This document shows positions 2,035 to 62,165 of a stretch of 64,000 nucleotides of DNA, one piece after another. The position numbers and the translations under genes were made by a program. The stretch is from Heptranchias perlo (Eukaryota). Each line of letters begins with the position of its first letter. Positions within the stretch are counted from its first letter, which is position 1. The notes beneath the pieces are model-generated. The model worked only from the letters and a program-made list of their open reading frames with translations, had not been told where the DNA came from and did not search any database. The stretch covers positions 13,640,001 to 13,704,000 of the forward strand of contig NC_090351.1 in the NCBI RefSeq assembly GCF_035084215.1, written 5' to 3'.

Positions 2035-2088
2035 TGTTATAAAATTGTTTACAATTGTCAACCCCAGTCCATCACCGGCATCTCCACA
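2035..2088 (+). mobile_element. Short 3'-end stub of the Penelope-like hammerhead family
   Basis: aaaattgtttacaattgtcaaccccagtccatcaccggcatctccacatca is identical to the end of the 61.4-kb copy; flanked by the direct repeat TCATTTACA (2026-2034 and 2089-2097). Confidence 0.85.
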
Positions 2089-2794
2089 TCATTTACAACA
2101 TCCACTGTTTGCTATCGGTGACTGATAGGGTGTGAAATCCCTGTGTTGTGAATGCTGGTCACTGAAGCAATCACTGCTGATTTTAATAGTGACATCTGGA
2201 GTCTTGCACTACTGAGGGATGAATGTTTATGGCTGGAAGTTGTGGGGCTGTGCATTGGGTGGGAAAATTACAAGTGCTGCGATTACACGGTGAGAGGTGC
2301 AGTTAGACAGCTCTCTTTTTAGGCGATAACATAGCACAGCTGTGCTCAAACACATGTACTTCCGCAGGGGTTTTAGCAAAATTAAAATAGGTCATCAATA
2401 ATTGATGTAAGAAATCAATATTTGGAGGTAACTTCACAACAGGCAGAACTCTCTGTGTGGGGCTGAGGGCAATCTGCATGACCAGAAGTGAAAAGATTAA
2501 ATGCAACTGCTAGGATGTTCAGTGACAGTGACATCTCATGCTGGTTTTTGGATGTTGTTATGTAATGATGGGCACCTCTCGACTAACACCGCTGTATTAA
2601 TGAAGTGTTAGTACCTTCATCGTAACCACATAGGAACCCTGTCTAAAGTTTCCCACTTTATAATTGTCACTGCAATTGATTAACTGCCCGTGTTTCTGTT
2701 CATATAAAACTCGACCAGTGGCCTCTCATTTGTTCCTTTCTAAAAGCATATCTGGATAAGTGATTCAAAGGAGAGATTATATTAGAGTAGGTCG

Positions 2795-14772: not shown

Positions 14773-16433
14773 TGAGTGCAAAAGACAAGGCTGAAGTGTT
14801 TGCAACCATCTTCAGCCAGAAGTGCCGAGTGGGTGATCCATCTCGGCCTCCTCCTGATATCCCCACCATCACAGAAGCCAGTCTTCAGCCAATTCGATTC
14901 ACTCCACGTGATATCTAGAAACTGTAAGTGCACTGGATACAGCAAAGGCTATGGGCCCCAACAACATCCCGGCTGTAGTGCTGAAGACTTATGCTCCAGA
15001 ACTAGCTGCGCCCCTAGCCAAGCAGTTCCAGTACAGCTACAACACTGGCATCTACCCGACAAAGTGGAAAATTGCCCAGGTATGTCCTATCCACAAAAAG
15101 CAGGACAAATCCAATCTGGCCAATTACCGCCCCATCAGTCTACTCTCAATCATCAGCAAAGTGATGGAAGGTGTCGTCGACAGTGCTATCAAGCGGCACT
15201 TACTCACCAATAACCTGCTCACCGATGCTGAGTTTGGGTTCCGCCAGGACCACTCGGCTCCAGACCTCATTACAGCCTTGGTCCAAACATGGACAGAAGA
15301 GCTGAATTCCAGAGGTGAGGTGAGAGTGATTGCCCTTGACATCAAGACAGCATTTGATCGAGTGTGGCACCAAGGAGCCCTAGTAAAATTGAAGCCAATG
15401 GGAATCAGGGAGAAAACTCTCCAGTGGCTGGAGTCATACCTGGCACAATGGAAGATGGTAGTGGTTGTTGGAGGCCAATCATCTCAGCCCGAGGACATTG
15501 CTGCAGGAGTTCCTCAGGGCAGTGTCCTAGGCCCAACCATCTTCAGCTGCTTCATCAATGACCTTCCCTCCATCATAAGGTCAGAAATGGGGATGTGTGC
15601 TGATGATTGCAGAGTGTTCAGATCCATTTGCAACCCCTCAGATAATGAAGCAGTCCGTGCCCCCATGCAGCAAGATCGGGACATCACCAGGCTTGGGCTG
15701 ATAAGTGGCAAGTAACATTCACACCAGACAAGTGCCAGGTAATGACCATCTCCAACAAGAGAGAGTCTAACCACCTCCCCATGCCACTCAACGGCATTAC
15801 CATCACTGAATCCCTCACCATCAACATCCTGTGGGTCACCAGAGGCTGGGTATTCTGTGGCGATTGACTCACCTCCTGAATCTCCAAAGCCTTTCTACCA
15901 TTTACAAGGCACAAGTCAGGAGTGTGATAGAATACTCTTCATTTGCCTGAGTGAGTGCAGCTCCAACAACACTCAAGAAGCTTGACACCATCCAGGACAA
16001 AGCAGCCCGCTTGATTGGCACCCTATCCACCATCTTAAACATTCACTACCTCTACCACAGGGCACCATGGCTGCAGTGTGTACCATCTACAAGATGCACT
16101 GCAGCTACTCACCAAGGCTTCTTGTACAGCACCTTCCAAACCCTCTACTACCTAGAAGGACAAGTGCAGCAGACGCATGGGAACACCATCACCTGCACGT
16201 TCCCCTCCAAGCCACACACCATCCTGACTTTGAAATATATCGCCGTTCCTTCATCGTCGCTGGGTCAAAATCCTGGAACTCCCTTCCTAACAGCATTGTG
16301 CGAGAACCTTCACCACATGGACTGCAGCGGTTCAAGAAGGTGGCTCACCACCACCTTCTCAAGGGCAATTAGGGATGGGCAATAAATGCTGGCCTTGCCA
16401 GCGAAGCCCACACCCCATGAATGAATTTTAAAA
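14773..16433 (+). mobile_element. 5'-truncated non-LTR retrotransposon of a second (CR1/Jockey-group-like) family
   Basis: RT ORF 14951-15715 ([37 protein letters not shown]); 3' end gggcaataaatgctggccttgccagcga. Confidence 0.9.
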
Positions 16434-17890: not shown

Positions 17891-18357
17891 GTCAGCTGTG
17901 GCTCAGAGGGTAGCACTCTTGCCTTCTCAGTCAGAAGGTTGTGGGTTCAAGTCCTACTCCAGAGACATAAGCACAAAATCTAGGCTGACACTCCAGTGCA
18001 GTACTTAGGGAGTGCTGCACTGTTGGAGCTGCTGTTGTTTGGATGAGACATTAAACCAAGGCCTTGTCTGCCCCCTCAGGTGGATGTTAAAGATCCCATG
18101 GCATTATTTTGAAGAAGAGCAGGGGAGTTCTTCCTGGTGTCCTGGCCAATATTTATCCCTCAATCAACACCTAAAAAAACAGATTATTTGGTCATTATCA
18201 CATTGCTGTTTGTGGGACCTTGCTGTGTGTAAATTGGCTGCCATGTTTCCTACATAACAACAGTGACTACACTTCAAAAGTACTTCATTGGCTGTAATGC
18301 AATTTGGGATGTCCGGAGGTCGTAAAAGGTGCTGTATAAATACAAGTTCTTTCTTTC
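17891..18357 (+). mobile_element. Full-length Deu-domain tRNA-SINE (SacSINE1-like)
   Basis: tRNA head (TGGCTCAG...GGTTCAAGTCC), Deu-like core ggatgagacattaaacc...aaagatcccatggca...gtgtcctggccaa, L2-like tail tataaatacaag. Confidence 0.85.
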
Positions 18358-24176: not shown

Positions 24177-27100
24177 GTAAGTAACTGGCTGGTCATATTT
24201 CTGGAGAGATAAGAATGGCTATTTGAATGGAGACAGGCACTTGGTAGAAAACTCTGGGAATATTCATGAGATTGGTAATTACAAGAGATGATATTAAAAC
24301 CTGTGTCTATGGCAACAGGCAATGTTATTCAATAACTTTAATCAAATACATGCCGTGTAATTTTATTAAAGTCTAGAATGCAGCTTAATTGTATTATGAG
24401 GTAAAGGGTACTTTATCTTAAAAACAGTCATGAAATAATATCCAGGAGCTGTGGAGATTATTGCAGGATTCTTGATGAATTTTAATGCAGGATGCTGCAA
24501 CTCACTGTAATAACCTTGCTATGGTCTGTTACAGGCAGGGGGTATTTGTCTGCTGGGAGTTGGCATCTGGGTTACAACCAACCCTAATGGCTTCAAGAAC
24601 ATTGTGACCGCAAACCCTTTGATCTATACTGGGGCTTACATCATCCTGTCAGTCGGGGTAATTCTCTTCTTCCTAGGGTTCTTAGGTTGCTGGGGAGCCA
24701 TCCGAGAGAGCAAACAACTGCTTATGACTGTACGTACAGCAACTTGATTCTTTCAGATTTTTTTTGATTGATGTACAGAGGTGTGAGAATGCTTAAAATT
24801 CAATCTTAATTTCCCACCCCCTCCCACCCCGAAATTTATAATCAATGAGATAAATTGCAAATTACTCCTTCAATAGGGTAACACCAACATGTGCAACACC
24901 CAATTTTCTCTTTTGAAGGTGCTAGGTTTCCAAGGGTATTGTTCCACATACGCCATCCGCCCTCCGGTCCCTTGCCCAGCTGGCCATTCGTCACATTTGT
25001 GCCTGGTGAGTGGCGGCAAGCATTTGGCCATGGGAGCATCATAGCCAAAACCCAATCAGGTCCAGGTCTGAAGTCTGCACCTTTGCACTTCCCATCAAGC
25101 ATTCACTGGGTAGCAAGGAGGACCAGGACCATGTGGCTGAGGTTTTCCCTCTCTGGTCCAGGAGCATTGAGGCTATTTGTAGTAGCTATGCTGTTGGCTC
25201 AGTACAGGCCTTGGTTCCAAATCAGTCTCGAATGCATCATTACCTCAGATAATCAAAAGGTAATGTAAGAACATTGCCTTTTTAAATTTAATTCAGATTC
25301 TTAACATACGAATTAGAATTATGTCAGGGATTAGTGTCTGCTCACCAGCCAATTGGACAAAATTATTTTAATAAATTAAAGGTGATTATGTAGTGTGCTC
25401 ATCTCTAGAAATACGAATCAATGCTGCACCATATTTACGTTTCACACTCCTTCATTCTAAGATGCCGCACACAACACGGATCTTTTCTGGTGGTCTGATA
25501 ATTGTTGAAAGTGGTGGCTTTCAAACTTTTCTGACTGGTGGACCCCCTGTAAAATATTGACACAATCCCAGTGACCCCTATAAAATATGGACAAACCACA
25601 AGAGCCCCCCAGTAAATATTGGCACATTTCCAATGACCCTTGTAAGATATGGACACACTCCAAGGGATACCCTGTAAAGTACTGACAAATTCTAAGGGGC
25701 CCCCAGTAAATATTGACTCACTCTCAGGGACCCCCTGTAATATGTTGGCACACTCCCAGGGAGACCCTGCAAAATATTGTCACACTCTCACGGATGCTCT
25801 GTAAATATTGACACTTTCAGGGACCCGTGTAAATATTGAAACACTCCCAGGAATCATCTTAAGTGTCAGCCTTGGCTCAGTTGATAGCACTGTCACTGCA
25901 AAGTTAGAAGGTTGTGGGTTCAAGACCCACTCTGGAGACTTGAGCATATAATCTAGGCTGACAATTCAGTGCAATGTTGAGGGAGTACTGCACTGTTGGA
26001 GGTGCCATCTTTTGGATGAGATGTTAAACCAAGGCCCTATCTGCTCTCTCAGGTGGATGTAAAAGATCCCATGACACTGTTTGAAGAAGAGCAGGGGAGT
26101 TCTCCCCGATGTCCTGGCCAATATTTGTCCCTCAACCAACATCACTAAAACAGATTACTTGGTCATTATCTCATTGCTGTTTGTGGGACCTTGCTGTGTG
26201 CTGCTGCGTTTCCTACATTACAACAGTACTTAATTGGTTGTAAAGTGCTTTGGAATGTTCTGAGGTCATGATAGGCGCTATATAAATGCAAATCTTTTCT
26301 TTTTCTTTTTCTTTAACAAATAACCAACTCTTTGAGACCACCTGTAACCTCCAGTTTAAAGACTTGTGCCATACTAGTTTTACAGATTTGCATTAGTCCT
26401 ATCTTTTTTGTAAGATTTGCCAGCCTTAAAGTATTTTTAAAGCCCCTTGTATCATAACTCCATATAAAGTGATGTTTCTTTATCAATGTGTCAATGTAAC
26501 TAGGATAATTTTTCCTTTGAACTTTCCGTTTGTGCTTATTTTAAAAACTGCAAATGAGCCGTCCCCACATTCTTTTCTACATCATCACTGTGTTGAAATG
26601 AAGACTTACTGCAACTTCTCCTACTCTTAATTCATTCATTCCCACTGCCTCAAAACTGTGGGACTCCTTCCCCTCCTGTCCCTTCAGTCTTCCCTTCCTC
26701 CTACAATCAACAAGCTTTTAAACAAAGTTTAACCAGCCCTTCTTCATTTTCTTTGTCATCTACTCTTTTCTTCTTTGGTGCTGAATTCTTCAGTGGCTCT
26801 CGACCCTTCATCCAAGGCCCAATATTATTACAAAATGAATTTGACTGAATAGCAAACCTGAGTAATTTGAAATTATCGAGCTCATGCGCTTACGTACTTG
26901 GGGGCTTGCCTTTACAAAGCAGAAATGCAAAGCTTGTCCTTGAGTGTATCAATGACCTAGGTTGTGAGCAGCTCCTGCTGGTGATTCCAGTTCATCCACA
27001 CTGTGTCTTGCTTCTCTTACACAGTATTCCATCCTATACTGAGAGAAACTTACTAAAAAAACGAGGATCACTTCCTTGCGTTTTCTAAAACTCACTGAGC

Positions 27101-30100
27101 TCAAGCCAAATTGTATATTTATGAATAAAAAAATGAATTCTGTGTGCTACGCCCATAATTCAATAATGTTCATGAGTTTGTTTTAAGTCCTCCCCTAAAT
27201 AAATGAGTAAATGTGACAAGGTAACTGCTAGTCAGTTTATAACTGAATTTCTCCAGCCTGGCTCGAACGCCTTCAGAATCACACAGCCTCGTGAAAATCG
27301 AAGGCAAGGCGCCTGTGTAAAGCATCACAGCAAATACCCAGAAACTAGAAGCAGTGCATCAGGTTCAATATCTCTGGTTTGAAGTGTCAGATTTTAGATT
27401 TCTGGTGTTAGTGAAATCGTAATTGCATATTTAAGACTTTGCTATAAATGGCAAACAGCGTAAATATTCCCCACATCGCGACTCGAACAGATAGTTAAAG
27501 GCATTAGGATTAATTGATTGTGTGCTGTTAATTGCAGTTTTTGCTGCTGATTCTGATCATTTTCATCCTGGAGTTGGTTGCAGCTGCCCTTGCATTAGTC
27601 TTCAGAAAGCAGGTAAGTACAATGACCAGAAATAAAACTGTTACTTTTCAGCTATTTGTTAGAAATTACCGTGCACCGTATACTAATACTGTCATTTATT
27701 TTCAGATAAGAAAGGATTATTTCTTAAAGGAATTGCAGATGAAGTATAAAGGAGACAATTCTACAGATGCCTTTTCAAAGACCTGGAATACCATTATGAT
27801 AGGCGTAAGTTTAAAAAAAAATTCTCTCCTTCCTCCTCACCACCCAAAGACACTGATTTATGCTGCCTATAGTTCCGCAGGCACCAGTTGCCAACTTGTG
27901 CCTCACCCAAGTGAGTGCTGACCAGCTAATTGGCCGTGTGATGCATCACAAGTGAGTGTCAACAGGCTGCTTGGCCGTGTGATGCATCACAAATGAGAGC
28001 CAACAGGCTGCTTGGCCGTGTGATGCATCACAAAAATGAGAATTGACAGGCTGCTTGACCGTGTGATGCACCACGAGTGAGTGACAACAGGCTGCTTGGC
28101 CACGTGATGCATCACAAGTGAGTGTGATTCTATATTCATTTACTCCCACACTTGTACTCTTCAGCAGGGTCACAGGATGGTGTGTTGGGGCAAGAACCTT
28201 TCTCTCTTCCCTAACACGGCAGCAGTGGTGCTGGTTGTAGCACATTGACTGATGCCTTGGGCAAGACCAACTAACTCAGTACTGCGTGGGTTTGAATCTG
28301 GATCTCCTTGACCTGTTGGCTCACCTATGTTAAGAGTCACAGGGTACACAACCTCGGGTACCTTACTGTTTATGTTGCAGAACCTCTTCCACTGGATTCA
28401 GTGTTATTATCCAGTGAGCCCTGCTGGAAAGTGCTTGTGTGTGGGTGTCGGGTGACAATAGAGTTGAACCCTGCTGTGGTACACGGCCTGACCAAGCAGA
28501 GAAACAGGCCATCCAGCCCATCAAGTTGTGTGCTGGTGTTTTTCTCCACCCAGACTCCTGCTTGCCTCCTGTACCCTTTAATGTTCCTTTCACTGTGAAG
28601 TAGAATTTGTATCAAAGACTTATTAGTATCAAAGTTGATGACTTGTCGTTTCAGTTTTCCTGCTGTGGTGTAAATGGGCCTCGCGATTTTGGACAGAATT
28701 CCACTTTTCACGAGCTTTTCCCCCGTATGCTATTACCTGAAGCATGTTGTAAGAGGAACAGCACAATCCTTGCGGAGGTGTTTCTAGACAAGAACAAATG
28801 TTTACAGGGAGACACTGGCTACATGAACAACAAGGTAAATGGAATATCTCCATGAAGCATTTGTTGTAAAGAGGCACTAATTCTTACCAAACAAGTTGGT
28901 AGGATTGTTACAAATCATACTGGTAGCTCCAACCAGTCAGATCTCAGGATTTATACGATGTGTTTATCTCTTAAATTATGTAAATATGATTACATTTTTG
29001 ATGGGGTTCAGTAAGCTAAGCAGGGGTCTATGAGACCAAGTTGGGTTCATAGAATCATACAACACAGAAGGAGGCCATTCGGCCCATTGTGCCTGTGCTG
29101 GCTCCTTTAAAGAGCTATCCAAATAGTCCCACTCCCTTGCTCTTTCCCCATTGCCCTGCAAATGTTTCCTTTGCAAGTATATATCCAATTCCCCTTTTGA
29201 AAATTACTATTTAATCTGCTTCCACCACCCTTTCAGGCAGTGCATTCCAGATCATTACAATTCACCGCGTAAAAGAAATTCTCACTTCCCCTCTGGTTCT
29301 TTTGCCAATTATCTTAAATCTGTGTCCTCTGGTTACCAACCCTTCTACCAGTGGAAACAGTTTTTCCCTATCTACTCTATCAAAACCCTTCAAAAGGGTT
29401 GTATGAAAGAATCTATCTTTGGTCTACATTACAATTGCCAGCATAGGAATATAGGAACAGGAGTAGGCCATTCAGCCCCTCATGCCTGCTCTGCCATTTG
29501 ATAAGATCATGGCTGATCTGTGATCTAACTCCATATACCTGCCTTTGGCCCATATGCCTTAATACCCTTGATTGCCAAAAAGCTATCTATCTCAGATTTA
29601 AATTTAGCAATTGAGCTAGTATCAATTGCCGTTTGCAGAAGAGAGTTCCAAACTTCTACCATCTTTTGTGTGTATAAATGTTTTCTAATCTCACTCCTGA
29701 AAGGTCTGGCTCTAATTTTTAGACTGTGCCCCCGACTCCTAGAATCCCCAACCAGCGGAAATAGTTTCTCTCTATCCACCCTATCTGTTCCTCTTAATAT
29801 ATAATCTTCGATCAGATCACCATTCAACCTTCTAAACTCTGGAGAATACAACCCCAATTTGTGTAATCTCTCCTCGTAACTTAACCCTTGAAGTCCGGGT
29901 ATCATTCTAGTAAACCTACGCTGCACTCCCTCCAAGGCCAATATGTCCTTCCGAAGGTGCGGTGCCCAGAACTGCTCACAGTACTCCAGGTGCGGTGTAA
30001 CCAGGGTTTTGTATAGCTGCAGCTTAACTCCTGCCCCCTTGTACTCTAGTCCTCTAGATATAAAGGCCAGCATTCCATTAGCCCTATTGATTATTTTCTG

Positions 30101-33100
30101 CACCTGTTCATGATACTTCAATGATCTATGTACCTGAACCCCTAAGTCCCTTTGGACATCCACTGTTTTTAACTTTTTACCATTTGGAAAGTACCCTGTT
30201 CTATCCTTTTTTGATCCAAAGTGGATGACCTCACATTTGCCTACATTGAATTCCATTTGCCACAGTTTGGCCCATTCACCTAATCTATCAATATCCCTTT
30301 GTAATTTTATGTTTTCATCTAAACTGCTTATAATGCCACCAATCTTTGTGTCATCGGCAAACTTAGATATGAGACTTTCTATGCCTTCATCTAAGTCGTT
30401 AATAAATATTGTGAATAATTGAGGCCCCAAGACAGATCCCTGCGGGACTCTACTAGTCACATGAAACCTTGTGGTCGATTTCCACGTAAGCTCGCTGCCT
30501 GCCTGTTGAACTTCTATGGAGTCCTAAACCATTTTCATGGTCAGGCCAAATTTTAATAATGCTCCACCTGGGCCCACAAAAATCATTAAATTAACTTGCC
30601 TTTGATGTTCGGATTTAAGGACCGCTAGTTAGGCTGCTCTACGTAGAGTTCCAATGGGTGGGGCTTGAGCAGCACACGTGTGCCCAATGGAACTCTAGAA
30701 TGGCATGCTCCATTTCCGGCTGGAGTCTTGGCTGCCTATTTCCCGGCCTGGACAAAATCAGGGGCAGGCCAGACGTCAGTGGCAACGGGGTGATAAGTCT
30801 TTTTACCGTTCCTGCTGAAAAAACAAGGCGGTAGGAGGATCAAAATTGGCATCCTTGTTTCTTCAATCAGAGGTGTAAAGTCCACTGATGTAAAACGAGC
30901 TGAAAATGGGCCCCATCTACTTCTTCGGGGGTGCTGCCGGCGCCTATTTCTCCTCCACGGGCAACTCGCCCCACAAGATAAAAGGGCCCTCATGTACATT
31001 TCGGGAGGTGGGAGGGGGTTTGGATCGGACAACTTGGGGGTGGATGGGGGGGCGATCACCAGGACTGCAGATTCGGGGGAATGCTCCTGCTCCTTCTGGT
31101 GCCACAGAAAGGTTTTTTAAAAAAAAAGTTTTCAAAACTCATGTTCCATTTGTGGCCGCAGGCCCCATGCCTGCCTCACTCTTCAGTAACACATTTTATA
31201 GAGGAGTACATCAACAGGTGTTAGTCCCCTTAAATATGATAATGAAGGGCCTAATGCCTGTTTTAGGCGTCTGCCTGGAACACTTAAAAAATTTTTTTAA
31301 ATGGTCCCCTCAAATTTAGGAGCGGGAGCAATGCCTGTGCAGATTGGGTGCAAGCCGTCCCACTGCTAAATTGGTATGCTTTGCACCCGTTTTACACCCG
31401 AAAATCTACCCCAATGAGTTACTCTTCTGTGGTTGCAGACAAATAGAAAGAAGGCCAGTATGAGGAGAGAAACAGCAGAAGAATAGTAATGAACATAACT
31501 GGAAGCACATACACGTTTGCAGGTAGAGACAGGAAGAAAGAAAATTTTACCTGCGGTTGTTTGATGACACTAGTAGATCTCTTGCGGCATTTCTCATGGT
31601 GAATTGGTGGGGGGGGGTCATACTTTTAGAGCAATGGGGGTATTATCAACAAAGTGTCGTGGGAAAGTCTTACAGGAAGTGTGACATATACAGGAAATGC
31701 TTGCTGTATTCAAGACTTTAAGTAAATTAGAGATTATAGCACAATGTTGACTCTTCATAGCTGTAGCTTTCATTCTCCTTTGTTGTTTCAGGGATGTTTC
31801 TCAATGATTGCAGAGAATTTTCGGAATTACGTTCATCTGATTGGAACGTTCAGTATAATAGTGCTTTTAATTGAGGTAAGGTCACATTTATGCAGATATA
31901 AAAACCTTGAAATGCTGCACAGATTAAAAGGAAAGTGGAAGATTTCCTCTGTTCACTGCTTGTCGTGAAACTGTAAGCATGTTTTTTACAAATACGTTTA
32001 CAAATGGCAAATGAGGAAATCTTTCTCCAAGGTGTTCTGGTATCACCATCATTGCATAAAAGGAGCTTTCCTGTTGCTGTCTAAACATGTACATGTTAAT
32101 CGTTGGGTGAGGAGGTCTGTACATGCACGGGCGGGAGAGTTGTGGTTTGAGTCAGGCAGTATAAATGGGGCACTGCCTGACTGGAAGCCTTATGGCACCA
32201 GCCTGAGACCAGTAGCCAAAGTATTAATGAACCAAAAGACCAACTCTGGACATCTGGGTTGTTTTGTCATGACTGTCACATCGAACAAAACTGTAAAAAA
32301 AACAATTGTGCAAAGTCCCTTGGAGGCATTTCTGCTCAAAGCACTTTCCTTCCAAATGTGCTTTAACAGCGGCGCCATAGAGATACCAGAGGATGGCTGC
32401 TGTTTGTGGAACTGCAGCAAGAGTTTGTGTCTTCAGGAGAGGATGGGAGAGAAATTGATTTATGCAACTATGAAATTGGTAGCTCCAAGCATTAAATAGA
32501 AAGGTCTCCCAAATAGAAAGGTGCCTGTAACTCAAACTGCTGTGCCTCAGTTGGGTGAATTTTTCCAATTCTACGTAGTAGACTGTGCAATTGACTTGCA
32601 CTATCTAAAGGGTTTTTTTTTTGTCCGCACTGTGTTTAAGTGACTTTTCCTGTTGGCAGATCACCTTTCAAGCAGGGGAAGGACAGACACAGGGAAGCAG
32701 ATCTTGACTTTATGCGATAGTGTAAGACGGGCGATGTCAGATCAGAGGACAAAGGAAATCTTCCCCTTTCCTTTCATTCTGTGCAATCTCTCCCTATTAG
32801 AGGAAAGTAAAATCAGGAGAGATGTATAACGGGCGGCTGATCAGATATTACCCATTTTACACTATCGTCCAAAATCAAACTTATCCCATGGTGAGAGAAA
32901 AATGGCAGGAAAAGATTAGCAATAAATTAAAATATAATAATCTCTGGGAAATTTGATGTTATGAATTCATTTTCAGAAAAGCACAATTACGTCCGATTGA
33001 GGTGCTCAGCTCCAATTAGATTGTGTGATGTGGATGCTTTGCCCCATTTTCTTCCTTCCCTATTTACTTCCTGTTATGCACCACAAACTGTACATCCCCT

Positions 33101-43456: not shown

Positions 43457-46400
43457 TTTTTTTTATTATTCTTTCATGGGATGCGGGTGTTGCTGGCAAG
43501 GCCAGCATTTATTGCCCATCTCGAATTACCCTTGAGAATCATAGAATCATAGAAGTTACAACATGGAAACAGGCCCTTCGGCCCAACATGTCCATGTCGC
43601 CCAGTTTATACCACTAAGCTAGTCCCAATTGCCTGCACTTGGCCCATATCCCTCTATACCCATCTTACCCATGTAACTGTCCAAATGCTTTTTAAAAGAC
43701 AAAATTGTACCCGCCTCTACTACTGCCTCTGGCAGCTCGTTCCAGACACTCACCACCCTTTGAGTGAAAAAATTGCCCCTCTGGACCCTTTTGTATCTCT
43801 CCCCTCTCACCTTAAATCTATGGCCCCTCGTTATAGACTCCCCTACCTTTGGGAAAAGATTTTGACTATCGACCTTATCTATGCCCCTCATTATTTTATA
43901 GACTTCGATAAGATCACCCCTTAACCTCCTACCCTCCAGGGAAAAAAGTCCCAGTCTGTCTAACCTCTCCCTGTAAGTCAAACCATCAAGTCCCGGTAGC
44001 ATCCTAGTAAATCTTTTCTGCACTCTTTCTAGTTTAATAATATCCTTTCTATAATAGGGTGACCAGAACTGTACACAGTACTCCAAGTGTGGCCTCACCA
44101 ATGCCCTGTACAACTTCAACAAGACATCCCAACTCCTGCATTCAATGTTCTGACCAATGAAACCAAGCATGCTGAATGCCTTCTTCACTACCCTATCCAC
44201 CTGTGACTCCACTTTCAAGGAGCTATGAATCTGTACTCCCAGATCTCTTTGTTCTATAACTCTCCCCAACGCCCTACCATTAACGGAGTAGGTCCTGGCC
44301 CGATTCGATCTACCAAAATGCATCACCTCACATTTATCTAAATTAAACTCCATCTGCCATTCATCGGCCCACTGGCCCAATTTATCAAGATCCCGTTGCA
44401 ATCCTAGATAACCTTCTTCACTGTCCACAATGCCACCAATCTTGGTGTCATCTGCAAACTTACTAACCATGCCTCCTAAATTCTCATCCAAATCATTAAT
44501 ATAAATAACAAATAACAGCGGACCCAGCACCGATCCCTGAGGCACACCGCTGGACACAGGCATCCAGTTTGAAAAACAACCCTCTACAACCACCCTCTGT
44601 CTTCTGTCGTCAAGCCAATTTTGTATGCAATTGGCTACCTCACCTTGGATCCCATGAGATTTAACCTTATGTAACAACCTACCATGCGGTACCTTGTCAA
44701 ATGCTTTGCTGAAGTCCATGTAGACCACGTCTACTGCACAGCCCTCATCTATCTTCTTGGTTACCCCTTCAAAAAACTCAATCAAATTCGTGAGACATGA
44801 TTTTCCTCTCACAAAACCATGCTGACTGTTCCTAATTAGTCCCTGCCTCTCCAAATGCCTGTAGATCCTGTCCCTCAGAATACCCTCCAACAACTTACCC
44901 ACTACAGATGTCAGGCTCACTGGTCTGTAGTTCCCAGGCTTTTCCCTGCCGCCCTTCTTAAACAAAGGCACAACATTTGCTACCCTCCAATCTTCAGGCA
45001 CCTCACCTGTCGCGGTGGATGATTCAAATATCTCTGCTAGGGGACCCGCAATTTCCTCCCTAACCTCCCATAACGTCCTGGGATACATTTCATCAGGTCC
45101 CGGAGATTTATCTACCTTGATGCGCGTTAAGACTTCCAGCACCTCCCTCTCTGTAATATGTACACTCCTCAAGACATCACTATTTATTTCCCCAAGTTCC
45201 CTAACATCCATGCCTTTCTCAACCGTAAATACCGATGTGAAATATTCATTCAGGATCTCACCCATCTCTTGTGGTTCCGCACATAGATGACCTTGTTAAT
45301 CCTTAAGAGGCCCTACTCTCTCCCTAGTTATCCTTTTGCCCTTTATGTATTTGTAGAAGCTCTTTGGATTCACCTTTGCCTGATCTGCCAAAGCAATCTC
45401 ATATCCCCTTTTTGCCCTCCTGATTTCACTCTTAACTCTACTCCGGCAATCTCTATACTCTTCAAGGGATCCACTTGATCCCAGCTGCCTATGCATGTCA
45501 TATGCCTCCTTCTTCTTTTTGACTAGTGCCTCAATCTCCCGAGTCATCCAAGGTTCCCTACTTCTACCAGCCTTGCCCTTCACTTTATAAGGAATGTGCT
45601 TACCCTGAACCCTGGTTAACACACTTTTGAAAGCCTCCCACTTACCAGACGTCCCTTTGCCTGCCAACAGACTCTCCCAATCAACTTCTGAAAGTTCCTG
45701 TCTAATACCATCAAAATTGGTGGTGAGCCGCCTTCTTGAATCCCTGCAGTCCGTGTGGTGAAGGTTCTCCCACAGTGCTGTTAGGAAGGGAGTTCCAGGA
45801 CTTTGACCCAGCGACGATGAAGGAATGGCGATATATTTCCAAGTCGGGATGGTATGTGACTTGGAGGGGAATGTGCAGGTGGTGTTGTTCCCATGTGGCT
45901 GCTGCCTTTGTCCTTCTAGTTGGTAGAGGTCGCGGGTTTGGGAGGTGCGGTCGAAGAAGCCTTGGCGAGTTGCTGCAGTGCATCCTGTGGATGGTGCACA
46001 CTGCAGCCACTGTGCGCCGGTGGTGGAGGGAGTGAGTGTTTAGGGTGGTGGATGGGGTGCCAATCAAGCGGGCTGCTTTGTCCTGGATGGTGTCGAGCTT
46101 CTTGAGTGTTGTTGGAGCTGCACTCATCCAGGCAAGTGGAGAGTATTCCATCACACTCCTGACTTGTGCCTTGTAGATGGTGGAAAGGCTTTGGAGAGTC
46201 AGGAGGTGAGTCACTCACCACAGAATACCTAGCCTCTGACCTGCTCCTGTAGCCACAGTATTTATGTGGCTGGTCCAGTTAAGTTTCTGGTCAATGGTGA
46301 CGCCCAGGATGTTGATGGTGGGGGAATTCAGCAATGGTAATGCCGTTGAATGTCAAGGGGAGGTGGTTAGATTCTCTCTTGTTGGAGATGGTCATTGCCT

Positions 46401-47535
46401 GGCGTGAATGTTACTTGCCATTTATCAGCCCAAGCCTGGATGTTGTCCAGATCTTGCTGCATGCGGGCACGGACTGTTTCATTATCTGAGAGGATGCGAA
46501 TGGAACTGAACACTGTGCAATCATCAGCGAACATCCCCATTTCTGACCTTATGATGGAGGGAAGGTCATTCATGAAGCAGCTGGTTGGGCCTAGGACACT
46601 GCCTTGAGGAACTCCTGTAGCAATGTCCTGGGTCTGAGATGATTGGCCTCCAACAACCACTACCATCTTCCTTTGTGTTAGGTATGACTCCAGCCACTGG
46701 AGTGTTTTCCCCCCGATTCCCATTGACTTCAATTTTACTGGGGCTCCTTGGTGCCACACTCGGTCAAATGCTGCCTCGATGTCAAGGGCAGTCATTCTCA
46801 TCTTACCTCTGGAATTCAGCTCTTTTGTCCATGTTTGGACCAAGGTTGTAATGAGGTCTGGAGCCGAGTGGTCCTGGCGGAACCCAAACTGAGCATCGGT
46901 GAGCAGGTTATTTGTGAGTAGAATGATGGGGCGGTAATTGGCCGGATTGGATTTGTCCTGCTTTTTGTGGAGAGGACATACCTGAGCAAATTTCCACATT
47001 GTCGGGTAGGTGCCAATGTTGTAGCTGTACTGGAACAGTTTGGCTAGAGGTGCGGCTAGTTCTGGAGCACAAGTCTTCAGCGCTACAGCCGGGATGCTGT
47101 CGGGGCCCATAGCCTTTGCTGTATCCAGTGCACTCAGCCGTTTCTTGATATCACGTGGAGTGAATCGAATTGGCTGAAGACTGGCTTCTGTGATGGTGGG
47201 GATATTGGGAGGAGGCTGAGATGGATTATGCACTCGGCACTTCTGTCTGAAGATGGTTGCAAACGCTTCAGCCTTGTCTTTTGCACTCACGTGCTGGACT
47301 CTGCCATCATTGAGGATGGGGATGTTTGCAGAGCCTCCTCCTCCCGTTAGTTGTTTAACTGTCCGCCACCATTCACGACTGGATGTGGCAGGACTGCAGA
47401 GCTTTGTTCTGATCCGGTGGTTGTGGAATCGCTTAGCTCTGTCTGTAGCATGTTGCTTCCGCTGTTTAGCATGCATGTAGTCCTGTGTTGTAGCTTCACC
47501 AGGTTGGCACCTCATTTTTAGGTACGCCTGGTGCT
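43457..47535 (-). mobile_element. Second-family LINE (43457-43538 plus 45718-47535), interrupted near its 3' end by a CR1
   Basis: RT ORF 46367-47581 ([27 protein letters not shown]); its 3' tail continues on the far side of the nested CR1. Confidence 0.9.
43538..45718 (-). mobile_element. Young 5'-truncated CR1 LINE with an uninterrupted 548-aa RT/C-terminal ORF (43619-45265)
   Basis: [46 protein letters not shown]; one in-frame stop at 45296; tail (ttctatga)n. Confidence 0.96.
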
Positions 47536-49321
47536 GTACAGTGATAGGTCCTTGTGAAAGAAAATGGGCCTCCAAACCCATGATTACACTCTGCCACTAA
47601 CAATTGTGGAGTGGGATTACTGATGCTCTGGAGTCCACTGCTTCAGAATCCTCAGGGTCAGCCAATTAGCATACTGTTAGCAGGTGCCCCTGCCAGTAGC
47701 CGGAGTGCCCTGGGGTAGTTTAGTGGGTGGGTGGGTGGCGCCAGGAACATGTGACTGTGGCCAGCTACTTGGTGGCAGAATCAGCAGGTGCAGTTAAAGA
47801 TTTTGGTAAAGGAAAGAAATTGGCCCTTTTCGAGGAAGGCTGCCACAACCCTGCCAAAATCTTCCTTGCTTAAGTGTGTCAGGCGTTGAACCTTGCAGAT
47901 GTGCAGAGGCGGGAATTCCAGCGGGTGACATTGTTCTGCCAGTCCCGCCTCCGTTCCTCACGTCAGGCTGTAAGGGGCGACTGCAAGAACCACCCACCCA
48001 ACCTTGACAGAGAACTCCAGTACATCACAGAATGGGGCGCAGTCCTGGCGTAAGTGGGAGCCCTCCAAATTTCCACCCTGCGCAGTCCCCACCCGCTCCA
48101 ATTGCACCCTGAATTTGTCAAAAACATTTGTGGGTTTTCAGGACCATTACCTTAGACAATAGAAGTGTTTCCATTTACATTCAGCTGGAGCCTGAGCATT
48201 GACCCAACAGGTGGAAGAACAGGTTTGCCAGGTGTAAAAAATCAACAGAAATCCTTATCCAAACTTAACAGGTTCTCAGCAAGCGCACTGTCCATTTCCC
48301 AGAATGCAGTTCTGTTTTTACTGTTCGAACTGTAATTTTCTGCAGGGGAAAAAGCACGTTTTAAAATGCATGAGCTTCCCTAATTAGATTCTAATATTCT
48401 TCGAATGATCTTATTTGCATACTGGCTAAGCGTTGCTATGGACCTTGGTACCTTGCTGAATCCCCAATTACATAAAGAAATCTCCCCACTCACACACCAG
48501 AATTAACAATGAGCCCGTGGACCAACCCACCTGAAATTTCAGAATATTTGACCTTCTTGCACCTCACGGGATGAGATATTTGAACGATGTTTAGTGAATT
48601 TCTGAGTAATTGAATTGGACACATGTACACCAAGAAATTCACCTGTCGCAAATGGTTTGGAGCTTTTAATATGAGAAGACCTTTCCTTGGTCTAATGGCT
48701 TTCATTTTTAAAAAAACTAAATGAGACTAAATTGCTGGCACATTTCAAAGTTAAAGCAGGATCATATTTAATTCATTCACCAAGATACCATTTGACTTAA
48801 TTTTTACTCTAGTCCCAGACATGCAGAGAGAATGTAGGTAATAGCAAGAGTAGTCATGATACAGCGTGGAATGAACCAATGTATTAAACTTGTGCATCGT
48901 TTTCTGAGGGCGGTTAAGTGCACACAGAGAGTTCTGTCTCACAAAATAAAATACTGTACCTTTAAATGAATGTCTGGAGTTATTAACCTTGACCACATTT
49001 ACTCAGGATGATTTGAATGCTGAAAAATATTTTCAACTTTTAAAATATTCATCTCTTTTCTTTCATACATTACATAAAAAATGATTCTGCAAATTTAATT
49101 AGAAATTTTAAAAGGTGGAATTAGTCAAATCCAAATTAATAAAGACTTCTGCCAATTAAAAAAAATAATTTTCGTTTTGTGGAGACGTGTTCTCACGGGA
49201 CCAATTTGACTGCAATTGTTCGCTGATTGATAATTCCACCGATAGTACCAGTTTATAGTCAGCCCAGTTAAATAGAGCTTGTTGAAAAAGAAGTGCCCTG
49301 ACTTCACTGAAATTTCCTAAT

Positions 49322-52820: not shown

Positions 52821-53929
52821 TTGTTGACCATTTTACTGTGTATCCTGGCTGAGGGATAAAAATTAAATACATAGGTAAAGGAACACATAATAATAATGAA
52901 GGCCATTCATTTGCTATTTGCACAGAAAAATAAACAGTTGTGAAATGCGATCCCCAAAAACAGTAAAAATCTCAGAATACCATTTAATAAAAATGGAATT
53001 TAACTTATTCGGGCACTGTAACTCAGTGGGCCCGAGAAGATATGTGGGTCACATGGCAAAACACCCTTAATGTTGTATTAGAATATTCTGGAACTCATCA
53101 TAAGCATTGCTATGTCACTGGCAAGGCCAGCATTTATTGCCCATCCCTAATTGCCCTTGAAAATTTCTTGCAGCTGAATGCCTCAAATTTTCTTATTCAT
53201 CCAAAAGCTTCAAATCCGACCTAAAGAGATAGGAAATACAGCCTTCAAAAGGTGAGGAAAATTGCTATTTTTTGAAAATCCTTTTGGCTGTAATTTTGGT
53301 TTCTTCAAGCTGAAGACACTGCCAATAATAAGATTTGTAACATACGAAGAACATAAAATACAACAACCTTCATTCATATAGCACCTTTAATTCAGAAAAC
53401 TGTCACAAAATCTACAAGGTAAATGGTTAAACACAGCTTTGGAATCACATCAGCCATTTTAAAATGCTTCCAAAGACATTTTCCATCAGAGGACTGTGGT
53501 TTCTGAGAACCCTGAAGCTTACGTTTATGGGATACATCACTCTGTCAGCTCAAAAATAACCCCAAGATAACAGACTACAACTCCCAGTATTCCAGGTACA
53601 TGTGAAACACACAAATATTAAGTTCAGATCACAAAGGTGTCTATTATTGTTACACCCCAGGTTAGAAAAGCATAAAAGACTTGCATTTATGTTGCACCTT
53701 TCATGACTTCAGGCCATCCCAAAGCACTTTACAGCCAATGAAGTACTTTTTTTTTGAAGTGTAGTCACTGTTGTGTTGTAGGAAACATGGCAGCCAATTT
53801 ACACACAGCAAGGTCCCACAAACAGCAATGTGATAATGACCAGATAATCTATTTTAGTGATGGTGGTTGAGGGATAAATATTGGCCAGGACAGTGGGGAA
53901 AACTCATCTGCTCTTCTTCAACATAGTAC

Positions 53930-54234
53930 TGATGTGGAGATGCCGGTGATGGACTGGGGTTGACAATTGTAAACAATTTTACAACACCAAGTTATAGTCC
54001 AGCAATTTTATTTTAAATTCACAAGCTTTCGGAGGCTTCCTCCTTCCTCAGGTAAATGTTCAGGAGCTCCTTGAAGCCTACGCATTTATACATATACGTT
54101 CTATATGTATAAATGCGTAGGCTTCAAGGAGCTCCTGAACATTTACCTGAGGAAGGAGGAAGCCTCCGAAAGCTTGTGAATTTAAAATAAAATTGCTGGA
54201 CTATAACTTGGTGTTGTAAAATTGTTTACAATTG
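53930..54234 (-). mobile_element. Non-autonomous Penelope-like fold-back element (138-bp perfect inverted repeat, 12-bp TSD)
   Basis: Arms 53959-54096 and 54102-54239, loop CGTTC; TSD TCAACATAGTAC (53918-53929 and 54235-54246). Confidence 0.88.
54141..54181 (+). ncRNA. Minimal type I hammerhead ribozyme motif (mirror copy on - at 54017-54057)
   Basis: AUUUAC [CUGAGGA] A GGAGG-aag-CCUCC [GAAA] GC [UU] GUGAAU: stem I, conserved core, stem II, palindromic AGCU stem III. Confidence 0.75.
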
Positions 54235-57193
54235 TCAACATAGTACCACTGATTTTTTACGTCCACCTGAGAGGTTTAACGTCTCATCCAAAAGACAGCA
54301 CCTCTGATAGTGCAGCACTCCCTCAGTGCTGCACTGAGTGTCAGCCTGGATTTTGTGCTCAGCTCTATGGAGTGGGACTTGAACCCACAAACTTTCTGAC
54401 ACTATCATATAGTTACAAATTGGGGAGTATGGGCACACCTCAGAAGGAAGACACTCAGACCACTTACGAGAGTGACCAGCAACAAGACTATCAAAGCCAA
54501 AGCGCAAATTCATATTGGGGAGCAAGACTTGGAGTAAAACTGGTGGGCAAATAGCCCATTATCACTTTCTACTGGTATTTACTCATGTCCATTTGAGTGT
54601 AAAATTATTCCACCGAAAAAGTTAATTCATATTTAAATTAATTTTGAATTTATGAAACAGTTATTGGTAAAACTTACGTGAAATGAGAGGTGCCAAATGG
54701 TTTGAACTTTGTTGATGGGTTACATACTTTGAGGGGCAGGTTGTGCCTCTGACAATGTTGCCTTCCTCAAGATGGGATGCCCCAGTACTGCAAAGCATCC
54801 CAATTTTAGCCGAGCAGGACCAGTGAAACACACCCACTGCAATCAGCCAAGATTGAACATCAGAACTGCCAAACCAATTCTCAATATATAAAGTCACAAA
54901 TCTCAAAGGGACCACTTTCTAAGTGCTTCTAATTTGTGTTGAGATTTTAATTAATTACAAAAATCTGGAATCATTAGTAGCAATAAGAGATTTGGAGGGC
55001 CTCAGCACTTAGGGTAATGATTGGCAAATGGTGTTTAATGCAGATGAATGCAAAGTAACGGGTGTAGATGTGAAAGACATTAACTGTGATTACAGGATTA
55101 ATGATTTTACTTTGATGAAGTTACTGCAGCAGCAGATTGCCAGAGTGGGTTTAAAAATATAGTGGTATTCCAGTGTGTAAGTGCATCACCCAGTGTGGTA
55201 GCGAGCTGTACAGAGCAAGATGATATTTCATTCAAAAGCAAAATATTGCAGATGCTGGAGATCTGAAAGAAAATGCTGGAAAAAGCTCAGCAAGTGAGGC
55301 AGCATCTGTGGAGAAAAATATTCGATTCATCCTCCAGTCTGTCTGAGTTAACTGATCGCAGCCATGATAGCAATGGGGCTGTCAACTGGCCTCAGTGTGG
55401 GATCAGACAATGTTCCCAGAGACCCCTGCTAGAAAGTACATATGTGGATGGACAGGACCGGGCATAGCTGTGACTCTCCTCCCCCCCCCTCCTCTCCGAA
55501 TAGCTTGTGATACTGTTAGGTTCACACACGTTGAGTGGCCACTTTGGTAAAGTACCTGAGGATTACCAGAATCCATGGAACAATATTAATGAGTCAGCAT
55601 TCCCAGGGGAGAACCAGAATAAAAAAACAAACTTCAGTTAGAGTAAATGTTATGAAGTAACTGAATTCTCTATTTATTATTAAAAGGGCCGTATTTGTAA
55701 TATTGTAGTGAGTCTGTAATACTGCCATGATGTTGTGTGGTGACACTGAGCAAACAGATAGATGGAAAATATTTCAACCCATTTTTCTTTCTGTTAATCC
55801 CCCAGCCCAGGTATTTTACCCACTCTGCCCAGCTCTGCTCACTTCCAGGCCAGTGCTAAGTGATCCTGCTTTGCACCACTTCACACCCAGGCCCAGGTTA
55901 AGTGCTTCAATTCTGCACTACTCGCTCCCTCCCTACCGGGCACAACCTCAATGATCCTGCACTGTTTCTGCTTCCCCCTTCATCGAAAGCCTGCTCCCTG
56001 TGCTACAGCTCCGACCTCCCCCCTCCCCCCGGCAAACATTTTAGGAGTAGTCTTACTCCCTGCTGTACGTCATCACTTTGTTCCTGCCATTCTCTCTGGC
56101 TCCCGTCCAGCCCCACTCTTCACTGCCCAGGTCAGAGACAGAGCAGAGCTTTGCTGCAGACAGGATGCATGAGTTCTAAGAGGACAGACAGACTCTGTCA
56201 ACTTTAAGACCAGCAGATCAGCTGCACTGCTGAAGGCTGCTCCTGAACTTTGAATAGGATCAGTCGTCAGGAGATCGGCCAGTCCCAACACAGACTGAGC
56301 CTGTGCACTCTCTTAATACTTGTACTACCAGTTTATAGCAGGACGCTGCTCTGCCCCTAACTCAAATGCCCAAAACACTACCCTAGCCTCCAAATGTAAG
56401 ATGGTCGGCATCACAAAAGTTCTGTCTAGCCCTCCTCTCACCCTGTCTCACTCCTGCCTTTGGCGCTCAGGCCCTGATCTTCCCCTCCCCATTCCAGCTT
56501 CAGGCCCTGAGCCCCATCCTCCTCCCTTCTGCTCCAGCTTCAAGCCGCTTTGTGGATCTTTCCTGACCCACATTCAGGCCTTCGCAGTTCAGACCCTGGC
56601 ATCCACTTTCCCCAGGTCCACACTCCCGCTTTCTCTCACCCACGAGTGTTGTGGCAATTCCTAGACACATCAGTGTGGGGTCACAAATCTGGATCTATTG
56701 TGACATCAAGACCACCCAGCCTGGAGAGCAAGACCGCTGTTCCAGATTCACCATTCCCTCCCAGGCCAGAGCTGGCATATCCTGCTTCTTCTTAGCCCAG
56801 GCCCCCAGCCTGAAGTTTCTCTGATGTGCGCACCGCCCCTAATGGATGCCTCTCTCTCCAGCTGGCCCAGATCCCCAACCTCGACTAGGTACACTTTTGC
56901 TTTCGCCTTCCTGTGTGTCTCACTATTTATTAAAAAAGTACCAAAATAACAGTGATGCATAAGGACTTCTTCCATATCTAACCACTGTCATTTCACTGTG
57001 CTCAATGCAATACTCCTGCAGTATAGATAGCAGTATTACCTTGGAAACCAGCCAACACCTTTTTCCCTTTGCAGTGACAGGTGATGATTAATAAGACAAA
57101 CTGACAATTAGGCCGCATTTACAAGAAGAGATTCTAAGTCATTGTACTAAATCTCACAAAATCTGTGTAAAACATCATTGAGGTGACACTTGA

Positions 57194-60441: not shown

Positions 60442-60777
60442 TGGTGTCTGTGGAGCAATATCCAGTGATGAGTCAATATCTTCAGTAGAGGAGGGAAGAA
60501 AACTGGAGGGTGAGAGGAAGAACAAAACTGGAGGGGGAGTGGGGGAGAAAACTGGAAGGAATTGAAAGAAAGTGCTCTCCTTTAGAAGAATTAAAGTAAC
60601 TTGTGAAATATGGCTCTGGAGTTCACTACACTGTCCTGCAATTCACAGAAGGTGGTAATACAGAAATTGCAGTTACAAAGCAAAATTGCAGTGTTTTTAG
60701 ATCATAGTTTAGATTAGAATGTGAGCACAGCTCAAAATGCTTTGTTTTTCTCTTACAGCCTATTTATCGTTGAAGAT

Positions 60778-61482
60778 TGTAAACAATTTTACAACACCAA
60801 GTTATAGTCCAGCAATTTTATTTTAAATTCACAAGCTTTCGGAGGCTTCCTCCTTCCTCAGGTGAACGTTGTTGGAAATGAAATCCTCGAAATGAAATCG
60901 CATTTATAATTCACAGAACAATGCTTGGTGATTACAGACAGTTTTTTCAACTGCCCGTTGCCAAGGCAATCAGTGTGCAGACAGACAGGTGTTACCTGCA
61001 AGGTCTCCGAATATACAAATCACCAAAAAAAACCAAAAAAACAAAAAAAAAACAGAGATAGAGAGGTAGAAACATAGAAAAGACAGCAACTGACCACCAG
61101 CGAACAAATGTTATCTGTTTTTAATATAACGGGTCAGTTGCTGTCTTTTCTATGTTTCTACCTCTCTATCTGTTTTTTTTTGTTTTTTTTGTTTTTTTTG
61201 GTGATTTGTATATTCGGAGACCTTGCAGGTAACACCTGTCTGTCTGCACACTGATTGCCTTGGCAACGGGCAGTTGAAAAACTGTCTGTAATCACCAAGC
61301 ATTGTTCTGTGAATTATAAATGCGATTTCATTTCGAGGATTTCATTTCCAACAACGTTCACCTGAGGAAGGAGGAAGCCTCCGAAAGCTTGTGAATTTAA
61401 AATAAAATTGCTGGACTATAACTTGGTGTTGTAAAATTGTTTACAATTGTCAACCCCAGTCCATCACCGGCATCTCCACATC
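60778..61482 (+). mobile_element. Non-autonomous Penelope-like fold-back element (inverted repeat of about 320 bp, 12-bp TSD)
   Basis: Arms 60776-61095 and 61132-61447, 36-nt loop, unpaired 3' tail; TSD ATCGTTGAAGAT (60766-60777 and 61483-61494). Confidence 0.9.
61356..61396 (+). ncRNA. Minimal type I hammerhead ribozyme motif (mirror copy on - at 60827-60867)
   Basis: GUUCAC [CUGAGGA] A GGAGG-aag-CCUCC [GAAA] GC [UU] GUGAAU. Confidence 0.78.
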
Positions 61483-62165
61483 ATCGTTGAAGATGGCAGG
61501 GCAGATTGAGAAAGCGGTTAAAAAAGTATATGGGATTTTGGGCTTTATAAATAGAAGCATAGAGTACAAAAGTATGGAAGTCATGATGAACCTTTATAAA
61601 ACACTTGTTCGGCCACAACTGGAGTATTGTATCTATTTCTGGGCACCGCAGTTTAGGAAAGATGTGAAGGCCTTAGAGGGGGTGCAGAAGAGATTTACTA
61701 GAATGATTCCAGGGATGAGGAAGTTACTTGGATAGACTGGAGAAGTTGGGGTTGTTCTCCTTGGAACAGAGACGGTTGCGAGGAGATTTGATGGAGGTAT
61801 TCAAAATTATGAAAGGTCTAGACAGAGTAGACAGAGAGAAACTGTTCCCATTGGTGGAAGGGTCAAGAACCAGAGGACATAGATTTAAAGTAATTGGCAA
61901 AAGAACCAAAGGTGAAATGAGGAAAAACTTTTTTACACAGCGAGTGGTTAGGATCTGGAATGCACTGCCCGAGGGGGTGGTGGAGGCAGATTCAATCATG
62001 GCCTTCAAAAGGGAACTGGATAAGTACTTGAAAGGAAAACATTTGCAGGGCTACAGGGATAGGGCGGGGAGTGGGACTAGCCGGATTGCTCTTGCATAGA
62101 GCCGGCGCAGACTCGATGGGCCGAATGGCCTCCTTCCGTGCTGTAACCTTTCTAGGATTCTATAG
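61483..62165 (+). mobile_element. 5'-truncated CR1 3' fragment
   Basis: LYKTLVRPQLEYC, LEQRRLRGDL, FFTQRVVRIWN; tail gtaacctttctaggattcta. Confidence 0.9.

What the first reader, a model, noticed from the sequence alone, without database searches (positions are those of the whole stretch)
53918..54246. Perfect 138-bp hairpin retro-insertion carrying two opposed hammerhead ribozymes
Seen: a non-coding insert of about 305 bp inside a SINE, with a 12-bp TSD (TCAACATAGTAC). Positions 53959-54096 and 54102-54239 are exact reverse complements around a 5-nt loop. Each arm has stem I (AUUUAC/GUGAAU), CUGAGGA, an extra A, stem II (GGAGG-aag-CCUCC), GAAA, and a palindromic AGCU stem III. Predicted cleavage is after CUU (54175 on +). 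Established: Penelope-like retroelements carry such minimal type I hammerheads in their pseudo-LTRs, and 5'-truncated copies can have inverted ends. Inference: this is a young ribozyme-bearing mini-retroelement mobilised in trans, and its read-through transcript would be almost entirely dsRNA.
Basis: partly seen in the sequence, partly recalled or inferred. Interest (0 to 1): 0.8.

Follow-up and report, generated by a model that had tools for sequence, protein, structure and literature searches.

The report
Mirror-image stump of a Penelope retrotransposon
The perfect hairpin is real but ordinary: it is a short mirror-image insertion of the tail end of a very common jumping gene, and thousands of sister insertions in the same genome hint at how these elements copy themselves into DNA.

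Summary
It is not a separate mini-element. Both arms are the 3' end of a 3.07-kb autonomous Penelope-like element (PLE); 9 copies with an intact 902-aa RT + GIY-YIG ORF were found. One arm carries the PLE 'tail' (167 nt, 100% identical to an intact copy), the other lacks it. This inverted pLTR + tail + TSD anatomy is published, as are hammerhead pairs on opposite strands. The family is huge (62,340 exact matches of a 31-mer), and about half of sampled insertions are such head-to-head pairs (35 of 67; 48 of 84). The hammerheads cannot dimerise in cis and are predicted to be buried in any read-through RNA. The family data add mechanism: either arm can be the longer, both arms share variants, and hairpin centres pile up about 30 nt after a TATA box (2,504) rather than at the ribozyme cut site (200). 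This fits priming from both nicked DNA strands on one RNA, an inference. New member of a known kind; modest interest.

The parts
53918..53929 (+). left target-site duplication (12 nt)
   Evidence: family TSDs are mostly 12-13 nt
53930..53958 (-). PLE 'tail' present only on this arm; in tandem copies it ends at the ATG of the ORF
   Evidence: the tail-less ends of the family lie 33-41 nt before the tail end
53930..54096 (-). tail-bearing arm: last 167 nt of the element unit
   Evidence: 167/167 identical to the pLTR + tail of L097, 166/167 to L105
54017..54057 (-). minimal type I hammerhead motif, minus-strand copy
   Evidence: mirror of 54141-54181
54097..54097 (.). single extra base at the head-to-head junction
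   Evidence: matches neither arm's continuation in the reference unit
54098..54239 (+). tail-less arm, 142 nt; 4 nt longer at its 5' end than the other arm; last 5 nt shared with the TSD
   Evidence: 141/142 to L105 unit, 139/139 to L097
54108..54113 (+). TATAAA box of the pLTR (mirror 54085-54090); putative start site about 54138 (inferred)
   Evidence: start site not measured
54141..54181 (+). minimal type I hammerhead motif, plus-strand copy; predicted cut after 54175
54186..54191 (+). AATAAA, possible polyadenylation signal of the pLTR
   Evidence: sequence, position map; function not tested
54235..54246 (+). right target-site duplication; first 5 nt continue the element sequence (microhomology)
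53664..54400 (-). host tRNA-type SINE interrupted by the insertion
   Evidence: emptied site aligns with copies at 17930-18352 and 25908-26306; box B at 54375-54385

Best explanation
A young, 5'-truncated, head-to-head insertion of the 3' end (pLTR) of an autonomous endonuclease-positive Penelope-like retrotransposon with a Neptune/Nematis-type linker. Shown: identity of both arms to the element's 3' end, one arm with and one without the tail, a 12-bp TSD, and the same anatomy in about half of sampled copies. Inferred mechanism: the element's GIY-YIG nicks both strands about 12 nt apart; each nick primes reverse transcription on the same element RNA, one at the tail end and one about 35 nt further in; both cDNAs stop near the same point and are end-joined, giving a palindrome. 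The hammerheads are passengers and are predicted to be inactive at this locus. Identity about 0.95; the two-primer, one-RNA mechanism about 0.6-0.65.
For: Arms 100% / 99% identical to ORF-bearing copies. 9 intact 902-aa frames in 8 loci, 98.3-100% alike, RVT_1 E 3e-10, GIY-YIG E 2.9e-4 on a fragment, just under the cut-off; DKG, YIDD, CX4CxxC linker, CxxxC between VVY and YIG. Head-to-head in 35 of 67 and 48 of 84 chains, tail-to-tail in 1 each; one tail end plus one tail-less end in 30 of 35 and 44 of 48; TSD 12-14 nt in 27 of 35, 12-13 in 33 of 48. Of 66 junctions: arms within 10 nt in 35, tail arm longer in 18, tail-less arm longer in 13, by more than 100 nt in 4. In 15 long pairs arms differ at 1.07 of 485 columns within a locus against 2.32 between loci; shared minor alleles sit in both arms in 11 of 13 cases (p about 1e-4 for the one 10-arm allele). 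A lizard PLE nicks and extends both strands in vitro and starts at two internal sites bounding the tail (PMC11167929).
Against: No biochemistry or transcript data here. Shared variants could come from two RNAs of one source locus or from later gene conversion. This insertion's arms end 36-40 nt upstream of the family's main stop point, so it is not a start-site run-off product; why both arms stop together here is not explained (broken RNA end or annealing at AT-rich palindromic words). Full-protein Pfam scan did not report GIY-YIG. No RT tree was built, so the clade rests on motifs. Samples overlap, come from one contig end and include a few duplicated insertions.
Confidence: 0.9

Rival explanations
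1. Same element, but the second arm arises by fold-back: the first cDNA snaps back and copies itself.
For: Arms share variants; 8 of 24 long pairs have near-equal arm lengths; centres favour short palindromic words, e.g. 19 of the 50 listed sit on the AAGCTT word.
Against: A tail cannot be copied from a tail-less cDNA, and a tail-less arm cannot be longer than a tail-bearing template; yet the tail-less arm is longer in 13 of 66 junctions (e.g. L242 3029 vs 203 nt, L046 2433 vs 1166, L164 1423 vs 872) and by 4 nt here. Fold-back may still make some of the symmetric copies.
Confidence: 0.15
2. Same element, inverted junction made by self-priming on an antisense RNA template, as proposed for rotifer Penelope elements.
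For: PMC3846280 discussion (passage seen) argues this from palindromes at head-to-head junctions.
Against: It gives no reason for the fixed tail / tail-less ends, which match two sense-RNA start sites in vitro (PMC11167929), nor for the pile-up 30 nt after a sense TATA box.
Confidence: 0.1
3. A discrete non-autonomous hairpin mini-element or retrozyme that is itself transcribed, self-cleaved and moved in trans.
For: Small size, intact hammerhead core, intact TSD; PLE-derived non-autonomous retrozymes exist (bioRxiv 10.64898/2026.07.22.740005); some junctions recur often at the main pile-up.
Against: This junction is unique among 8; no tandem array; arms are unmodified element 3' ends; recurrent junctions occur with different subfamily variants and different tail-less ends; hammerhead predicted buried; few centres at the cut site.
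Confidence: 0.04
4. Assembly fold-back artefact.
For: Perfect palindrome; no independent sample covers the locus.
Against: TSD on both sides, continuous host SINE, asymmetric tail, and the same anatomy at thousands of loci.
Confidence: 0.01

Closest known systems
EN+ Penelope-like element insertions with inverted 5'-truncated pLTR and tail (PMC3846280; PMC8557442)
   Same: Head-to-head inverted pLTR, 30-40-nt tail at one end only, short TSD, partial tandems, TATA-like motif in the pLTR (passages).
   Different: TSD here 12-13 nt against 8-10 in the rotifer paper; this copy has lost all coding sequence; very high copy number.
Minimal hammerheads of metazoan PLEs (PMC4209133)
   Same: Type I, extra base before stem II, G10.1-C11.1, palindromic 15.2-16.2 region; that paper notes pairs 100-700 bp apart on opposite strands, and no monomer and low dimer activity for a schistosome motif.
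   Different: Stem II 5 bp and stem I 6 bp here; N7 is G or C; in subfamily B an upstream leader is predicted to pair with the motif.
PAc, Poseidon element of the green anole (PMC11167929)
   Same: Tail bounded by two internal start sites; both strands cut and extended; ribozyme cleavage not needed for insertion.
   Different: Here the ORF starts at the tail's end rather than in the hammerhead, and the protein has the CX2-5CxxC linker that Penelope/Poseidon lack.
Non-LTR retrozymes (bioRxiv 10.64898/2026.07.22.740005)
   Same: Non-coding, PLE-related, type I hammerhead.
   Different: Retrozymes are head-to-tail tandem units with at least two same-strand hammerheads; this is a head-to-head pair.
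L1 twin priming (recalled; PMC2837659 seen only in a search listing)
   Same: Both nicked strands prime on one RNA and the cDNAs are joined head-to-head within TSDs.
   Different: In L1 the inverted part is a different, upstream stretch; here both arms copy the same stretch because both start near the tail.

Membership tests
EN+ Penelope-like element | Single ORF with RT and C-terminal GIY-YIG endonuclease in the parent element | tested here: met
   902-aa ORF, RVT_1 hit, YIDD, VVY..YIG, downstream R, H, E, N
EN+ Penelope-like element | DKG motif and two cysteines between GIY and YIG (CCHH finger) | tested here: met
   DKG at 296, CRKGC at 796 before YIG at 805; histidines follow in the sequence but were not aligned to a reference
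EN+ Penelope-like element | pLTR from partial tandems, inverted 5'-truncated copy, 30-40-nt tail at one end | tested here: met
   tandems L097, L105, L228; tail/tail-less pairs
EN+ Penelope-like element | RT phylogeny with PLE/TERT group | not tested
   no reference PLE proteins were fetched; PDB search found nothing
Neptune/Nematis clade | CX2-5CxxC linker between RT and EN | tested here: met
   CHGNLCKTC at 753; definition from PMC8557442. Neptune versus Nematis not resolved
Minimal type I hammerhead of PLEs | Conserved core with stems I and II supported by covariation | tested here: met
   22 hand-picked variants: 94.6% of cells paired, 4 of 11 pairs with two-sided change, 12 of 500 shuffles as high; relatedness inflates this, and core invariance is partly built into the search pattern (62 of 423 anchors unmatched)
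Minimal type I hammerhead of PLEs | Palindromic stem III region allowing a dimer fold | tested here: inconclusive
   AGCT invariant in the 22 rows; the double-hammerhead fold scores -19.1 kcal/mol against -27.9 for the best co-fold
Minimal type I hammerhead of PLEs | Self-cleavage | not testable with these tools
   needs an assay; few hairpin centres map to the cut site
Rfam hammerhead families | Covariance-model match | tested here: not met
   no hammerhead match at E <= 1
Non-LTR retrozyme | Head-to-tail tandem of units each with a same-strand hammerhead | tested here: not met
   no tandem array at the locus; arms are head-to-head
Discrete non-autonomous mini-element | Many copies with the same ends and the same internal junction | tested here: not met
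   junction unique among 8 hairpins with a centre in this window

The most novel reading that the evidence does not exclude
This genome records, at thousands of loci, that PLEs routinely integrate by double priming on one RNA: two nicks 12-13 nt apart start cDNAs at the two edges of the tail, and most short copies are run-off products from the RNA's 5' end, which lies about 30 nt after a TATA box and just before the hammerhead, like a strong-stop DNA. In subfamily B the sequence upstream of that start is predicted to fold over and silence the hammerhead, so the ribozyme could fold only in the 5' copy.
Probability: 0.5. Interest if true: 0.6.

Novelty: new member of a known kind. Interest (0 to 1): 0.3.

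Why it matters
The single hairpin matters little. The family matters more: how PLEs make inverted pLTRs and tails is stated to be unresolved (PMC8557442, passages), and here intact young ORFs sit beside thousands of dated products whose ends, TSDs and junctions constrain the mechanism. At least 2,504 short near-perfect palindromes could also feed dsRNA or small-RNA pathways or be fragile sites, and will be mis-called as microRNA precursors; neither effect was tested.

Tried and rejected
Rfam: no hammerhead; mir-3688 and other miRNA matches are below gathering score and reflect the hairpin. PDB search with the ORF: 0 matches. Sequencing runs: four holders of most of the stretch, all one sample and study, possibly the assembly source; no RNA holder listed. 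Laying contigs on the left flank plus one arm was swamped by repeats; no piece spanned the junction, so presence of an empty allele and expression stay untested. Hammerhead cut site as the usual 5' end of templates: rejected, 200 centres against 2,504 further upstream, and 19 of 50 listed include bases upstream of the cut. Apparent pile-up at this locus's own centre: rejected as a query effect (8 genome-wide). Leader-silencing as a family-wide rule: rejected; seen in most B variants, weak in two B variants and absent or weak in the 7 A-type rows of 22 folded. Host gene context: 35 of 78 long frames scanned gave only RT fragments (6 hits); short exons were not searched. Literature: a search for shark + Penelope + Neptune gave 1 unrelated paper; searches showed no paper stating the double-priming or start-site run-off model, but the library lacks most subscription papers (e.g. 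the 2005 and 2006 PLE reviews were not seen), and supplements were not read.

Full report
Observation. The inverted repeat, loop, TSD and hammerhead parts are exactly as described. Removing the insert restores a continuous match to two other copies of a tRNA-type SINE in the window (box B). The right arm's last 5 nt double as the start of the right TSD, the left arm has 29 extra nt at its outer end, and four of the five loop bases belong to the right arm. Rfam finds no hammerhead, only sub-threshold hairpin matches.

What it is. The window lies in a 3.25-Gb genome. Exact matches: 10,351 for the 39-nt hammerhead core, 563 for a 51-mer specific to this subfamily, B, 62,340 for a 31-mer near the 3' end. 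[quoted passage not shown] By the definitions in PMC8557442 (passages) this is an endonuclease-positive Penelope-like element of Neptune/Nematis type; no tree was built. The unit is about 3.07 kb and occurs in tandems; the ATG follows the tail directly. The left arm is the unit's last 167 nt (167/167 to L097); the right arm starts 4 nt earlier and stops 29-34 nt short of the end. The repeat content looks like that of a cartilaginous fish; this is recalled, not from a call. At 88% likeness the arm had almost no cover in runs of two other organisms and little in a third, while the SINE was covered in all four (summed contig depth, not copy number), in line with a recent, lineage-limited burst.

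How common the anatomy is. Regions around the first 100 matches of the core gave 84 chains, 48 head-to-head; the first 100 matches of the 31-mer gave 67 chains, 35 head-to-head, 4 touching a region edge; tail-to-tail occurred once in each. One tail end plus one tail-less end: 44 of 48 and 30 of 35. TSDs of 12-13 nt: 33 of 48; 12-14 nt: 27 of 35. The samples overlap, come from the start of contig C1, and include a few duplicated insertions; some 'single' chains are probably pairs with a short or separated second arm. In 55 TSDs A+T is 70%. A second palindrome of subfamily A lies in the window at about 60766-61494.

Mechanism. Of 77 junctions, 6 could not be refined and 5 had no clear tail side; of the other 66 (one is an internal junction of a complex copy) the arms start within 10 nt of each other in 35, the tail arm is longer in 18 and the tail-less arm in 13. 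A longer tail-less arm cannot come from simple fold-back of one cDNA. In 15 of 20 long subfamily-B regions (2 tandems and 3 with short or inseparable arms left out) the arms of a locus are closer to each other than to other loci (1.07 against 2.32 differences in 485 columns), and shared minor alleles are in both arms in 11 of 13 cases. Together with the in vitro result that a lizard PLE cuts and extends both strands and starts at two sites bounding the tail (PMC11167929, parts 1-2 of 4 read), the simplest reading is two priming events on one RNA followed by end-joining. This is inference; a common source locus or gene conversion would also give shared variants.

Where the copies stop. Genome-wide counts of hairpins whose two arms end within 16 nt beyond a 13-mer, by distance of that 13-mer from the tail end: 67 nt, 116; 88 nt, spanning the ribozyme cut site, 200; 103 nt, 386; 122 nt, 2,504 (36 of the 50 listed are B-type by my count); and B only, 152 nt, 66; 164 nt, 8 including this locus, with 7 different junctions. 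The peak lies just before hammerhead stem I and about 30 nt after a TATAAA at 160 (B) or 167 (A), suggesting run-off at the transcript's 5' end. Exact-match counts depend on local divergence, and the D. virilis promoter is reported as TATA-less (PMC2377424, passages), while a rotifer pLTR has TATA and Inr-like motifs (PMC3846280, passages). This locus is off the peak: its template reached past the TATA box.

The ribozymes. The motif folds into stems I and II alone (z -1.6) and variants keep the pairing (with the caveats in the membership table). In a read-through RNA of either strand the antisense arm comes first and the hairpin (-268 and -262 kcal/mol) leaves stem II probability at 0. Even one arm alone is predicted to misfold (stem II 0.01) because the 30-40 nt upstream pair with the motif; starting at TATA+30 restores it (0.99), and 1-3% of shuffled leaders do as well in the two commonest B variants, but the effect is weak or absent in A-type rows. 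No cleavage was tested.

Known versus new. Inverted pLTR with a 31-bp tail and 8-10-bp TSD is described in PMC3846280 (passages) and summarised in PMC8557442 (passages) and a curation guide (PMC8969392, passages). PMC4209133 (parts 1-2 of 4 read) reports minimal hammerheads in pLTRs, pairs on opposite strands 100-700 bp apart, and low activity. The retrozyme preprint (part 1 of 5 and passages) defines retrozymes as tandems, which this is not. Two unchecked notes from other genomes in this scan describe the same kind of palindromic stumps and the same clustering before the hammerhead; I saw them after my own counts, and they are not independent support. Look-ups by place and by sequence returned nothing.

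Verdict. Real, young, and explained: a new member of a known kind. Interest 0.3, carried by the family-level mechanism clues rather than by this hairpin.

Noticed in passing
window 60766-61494: Second head-to-head insertion of the same family (subfamily A), arms about 330 bp, tail on the plus arm, TSD of 11-12 nt; about 98% identity between arms.
   Followed up: partly
window 2035-2091: 57-nt 3' fragment of the element with full tail and a short direct repeat on both sides.
   Followed up: no
window 11163-13971: Minisatellite, 31-bp unit, about 90 copies, 93% matches, strong GC skew.
   Followed up: no
window 5061-6492, 9500-11052, 14912-15712, 29528-30523, 43622-47596: Several LINE-like RT fragments (Pfam RVT_1); 10116-11138 and 29442-30462 are 96% identical inverted copies.
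   Followed up: no
L214 (G000:C1:3119200-3129000), L228 (G000:C1:4460300-4470000), L226: Arrays of several full-length units in tandem and inverted, with intact ORFs; likely source loci.
   Followed up: partly
L214 junction, L054, L052, L170: Junctions hold short templated repeats of nearby element sequence, in L214 several slipped copies of a 9-10-nt word, suggesting repeated re-priming during joining.
   Followed up: no
subfamily B pLTR, e.g. window 54098-54200: Leader predicted to pair with and silence the hammerhead; released if RNA starts 30 nt after the TATA box. Not general in subfamily A.
   Followed up: partly
window 54235-54239 and family junctions: Short microhomology between target and element at the tail-less end: 5 nt here, mostly 1-2 nt in 55 other junctions (method inflates it).
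   Followed up: partly
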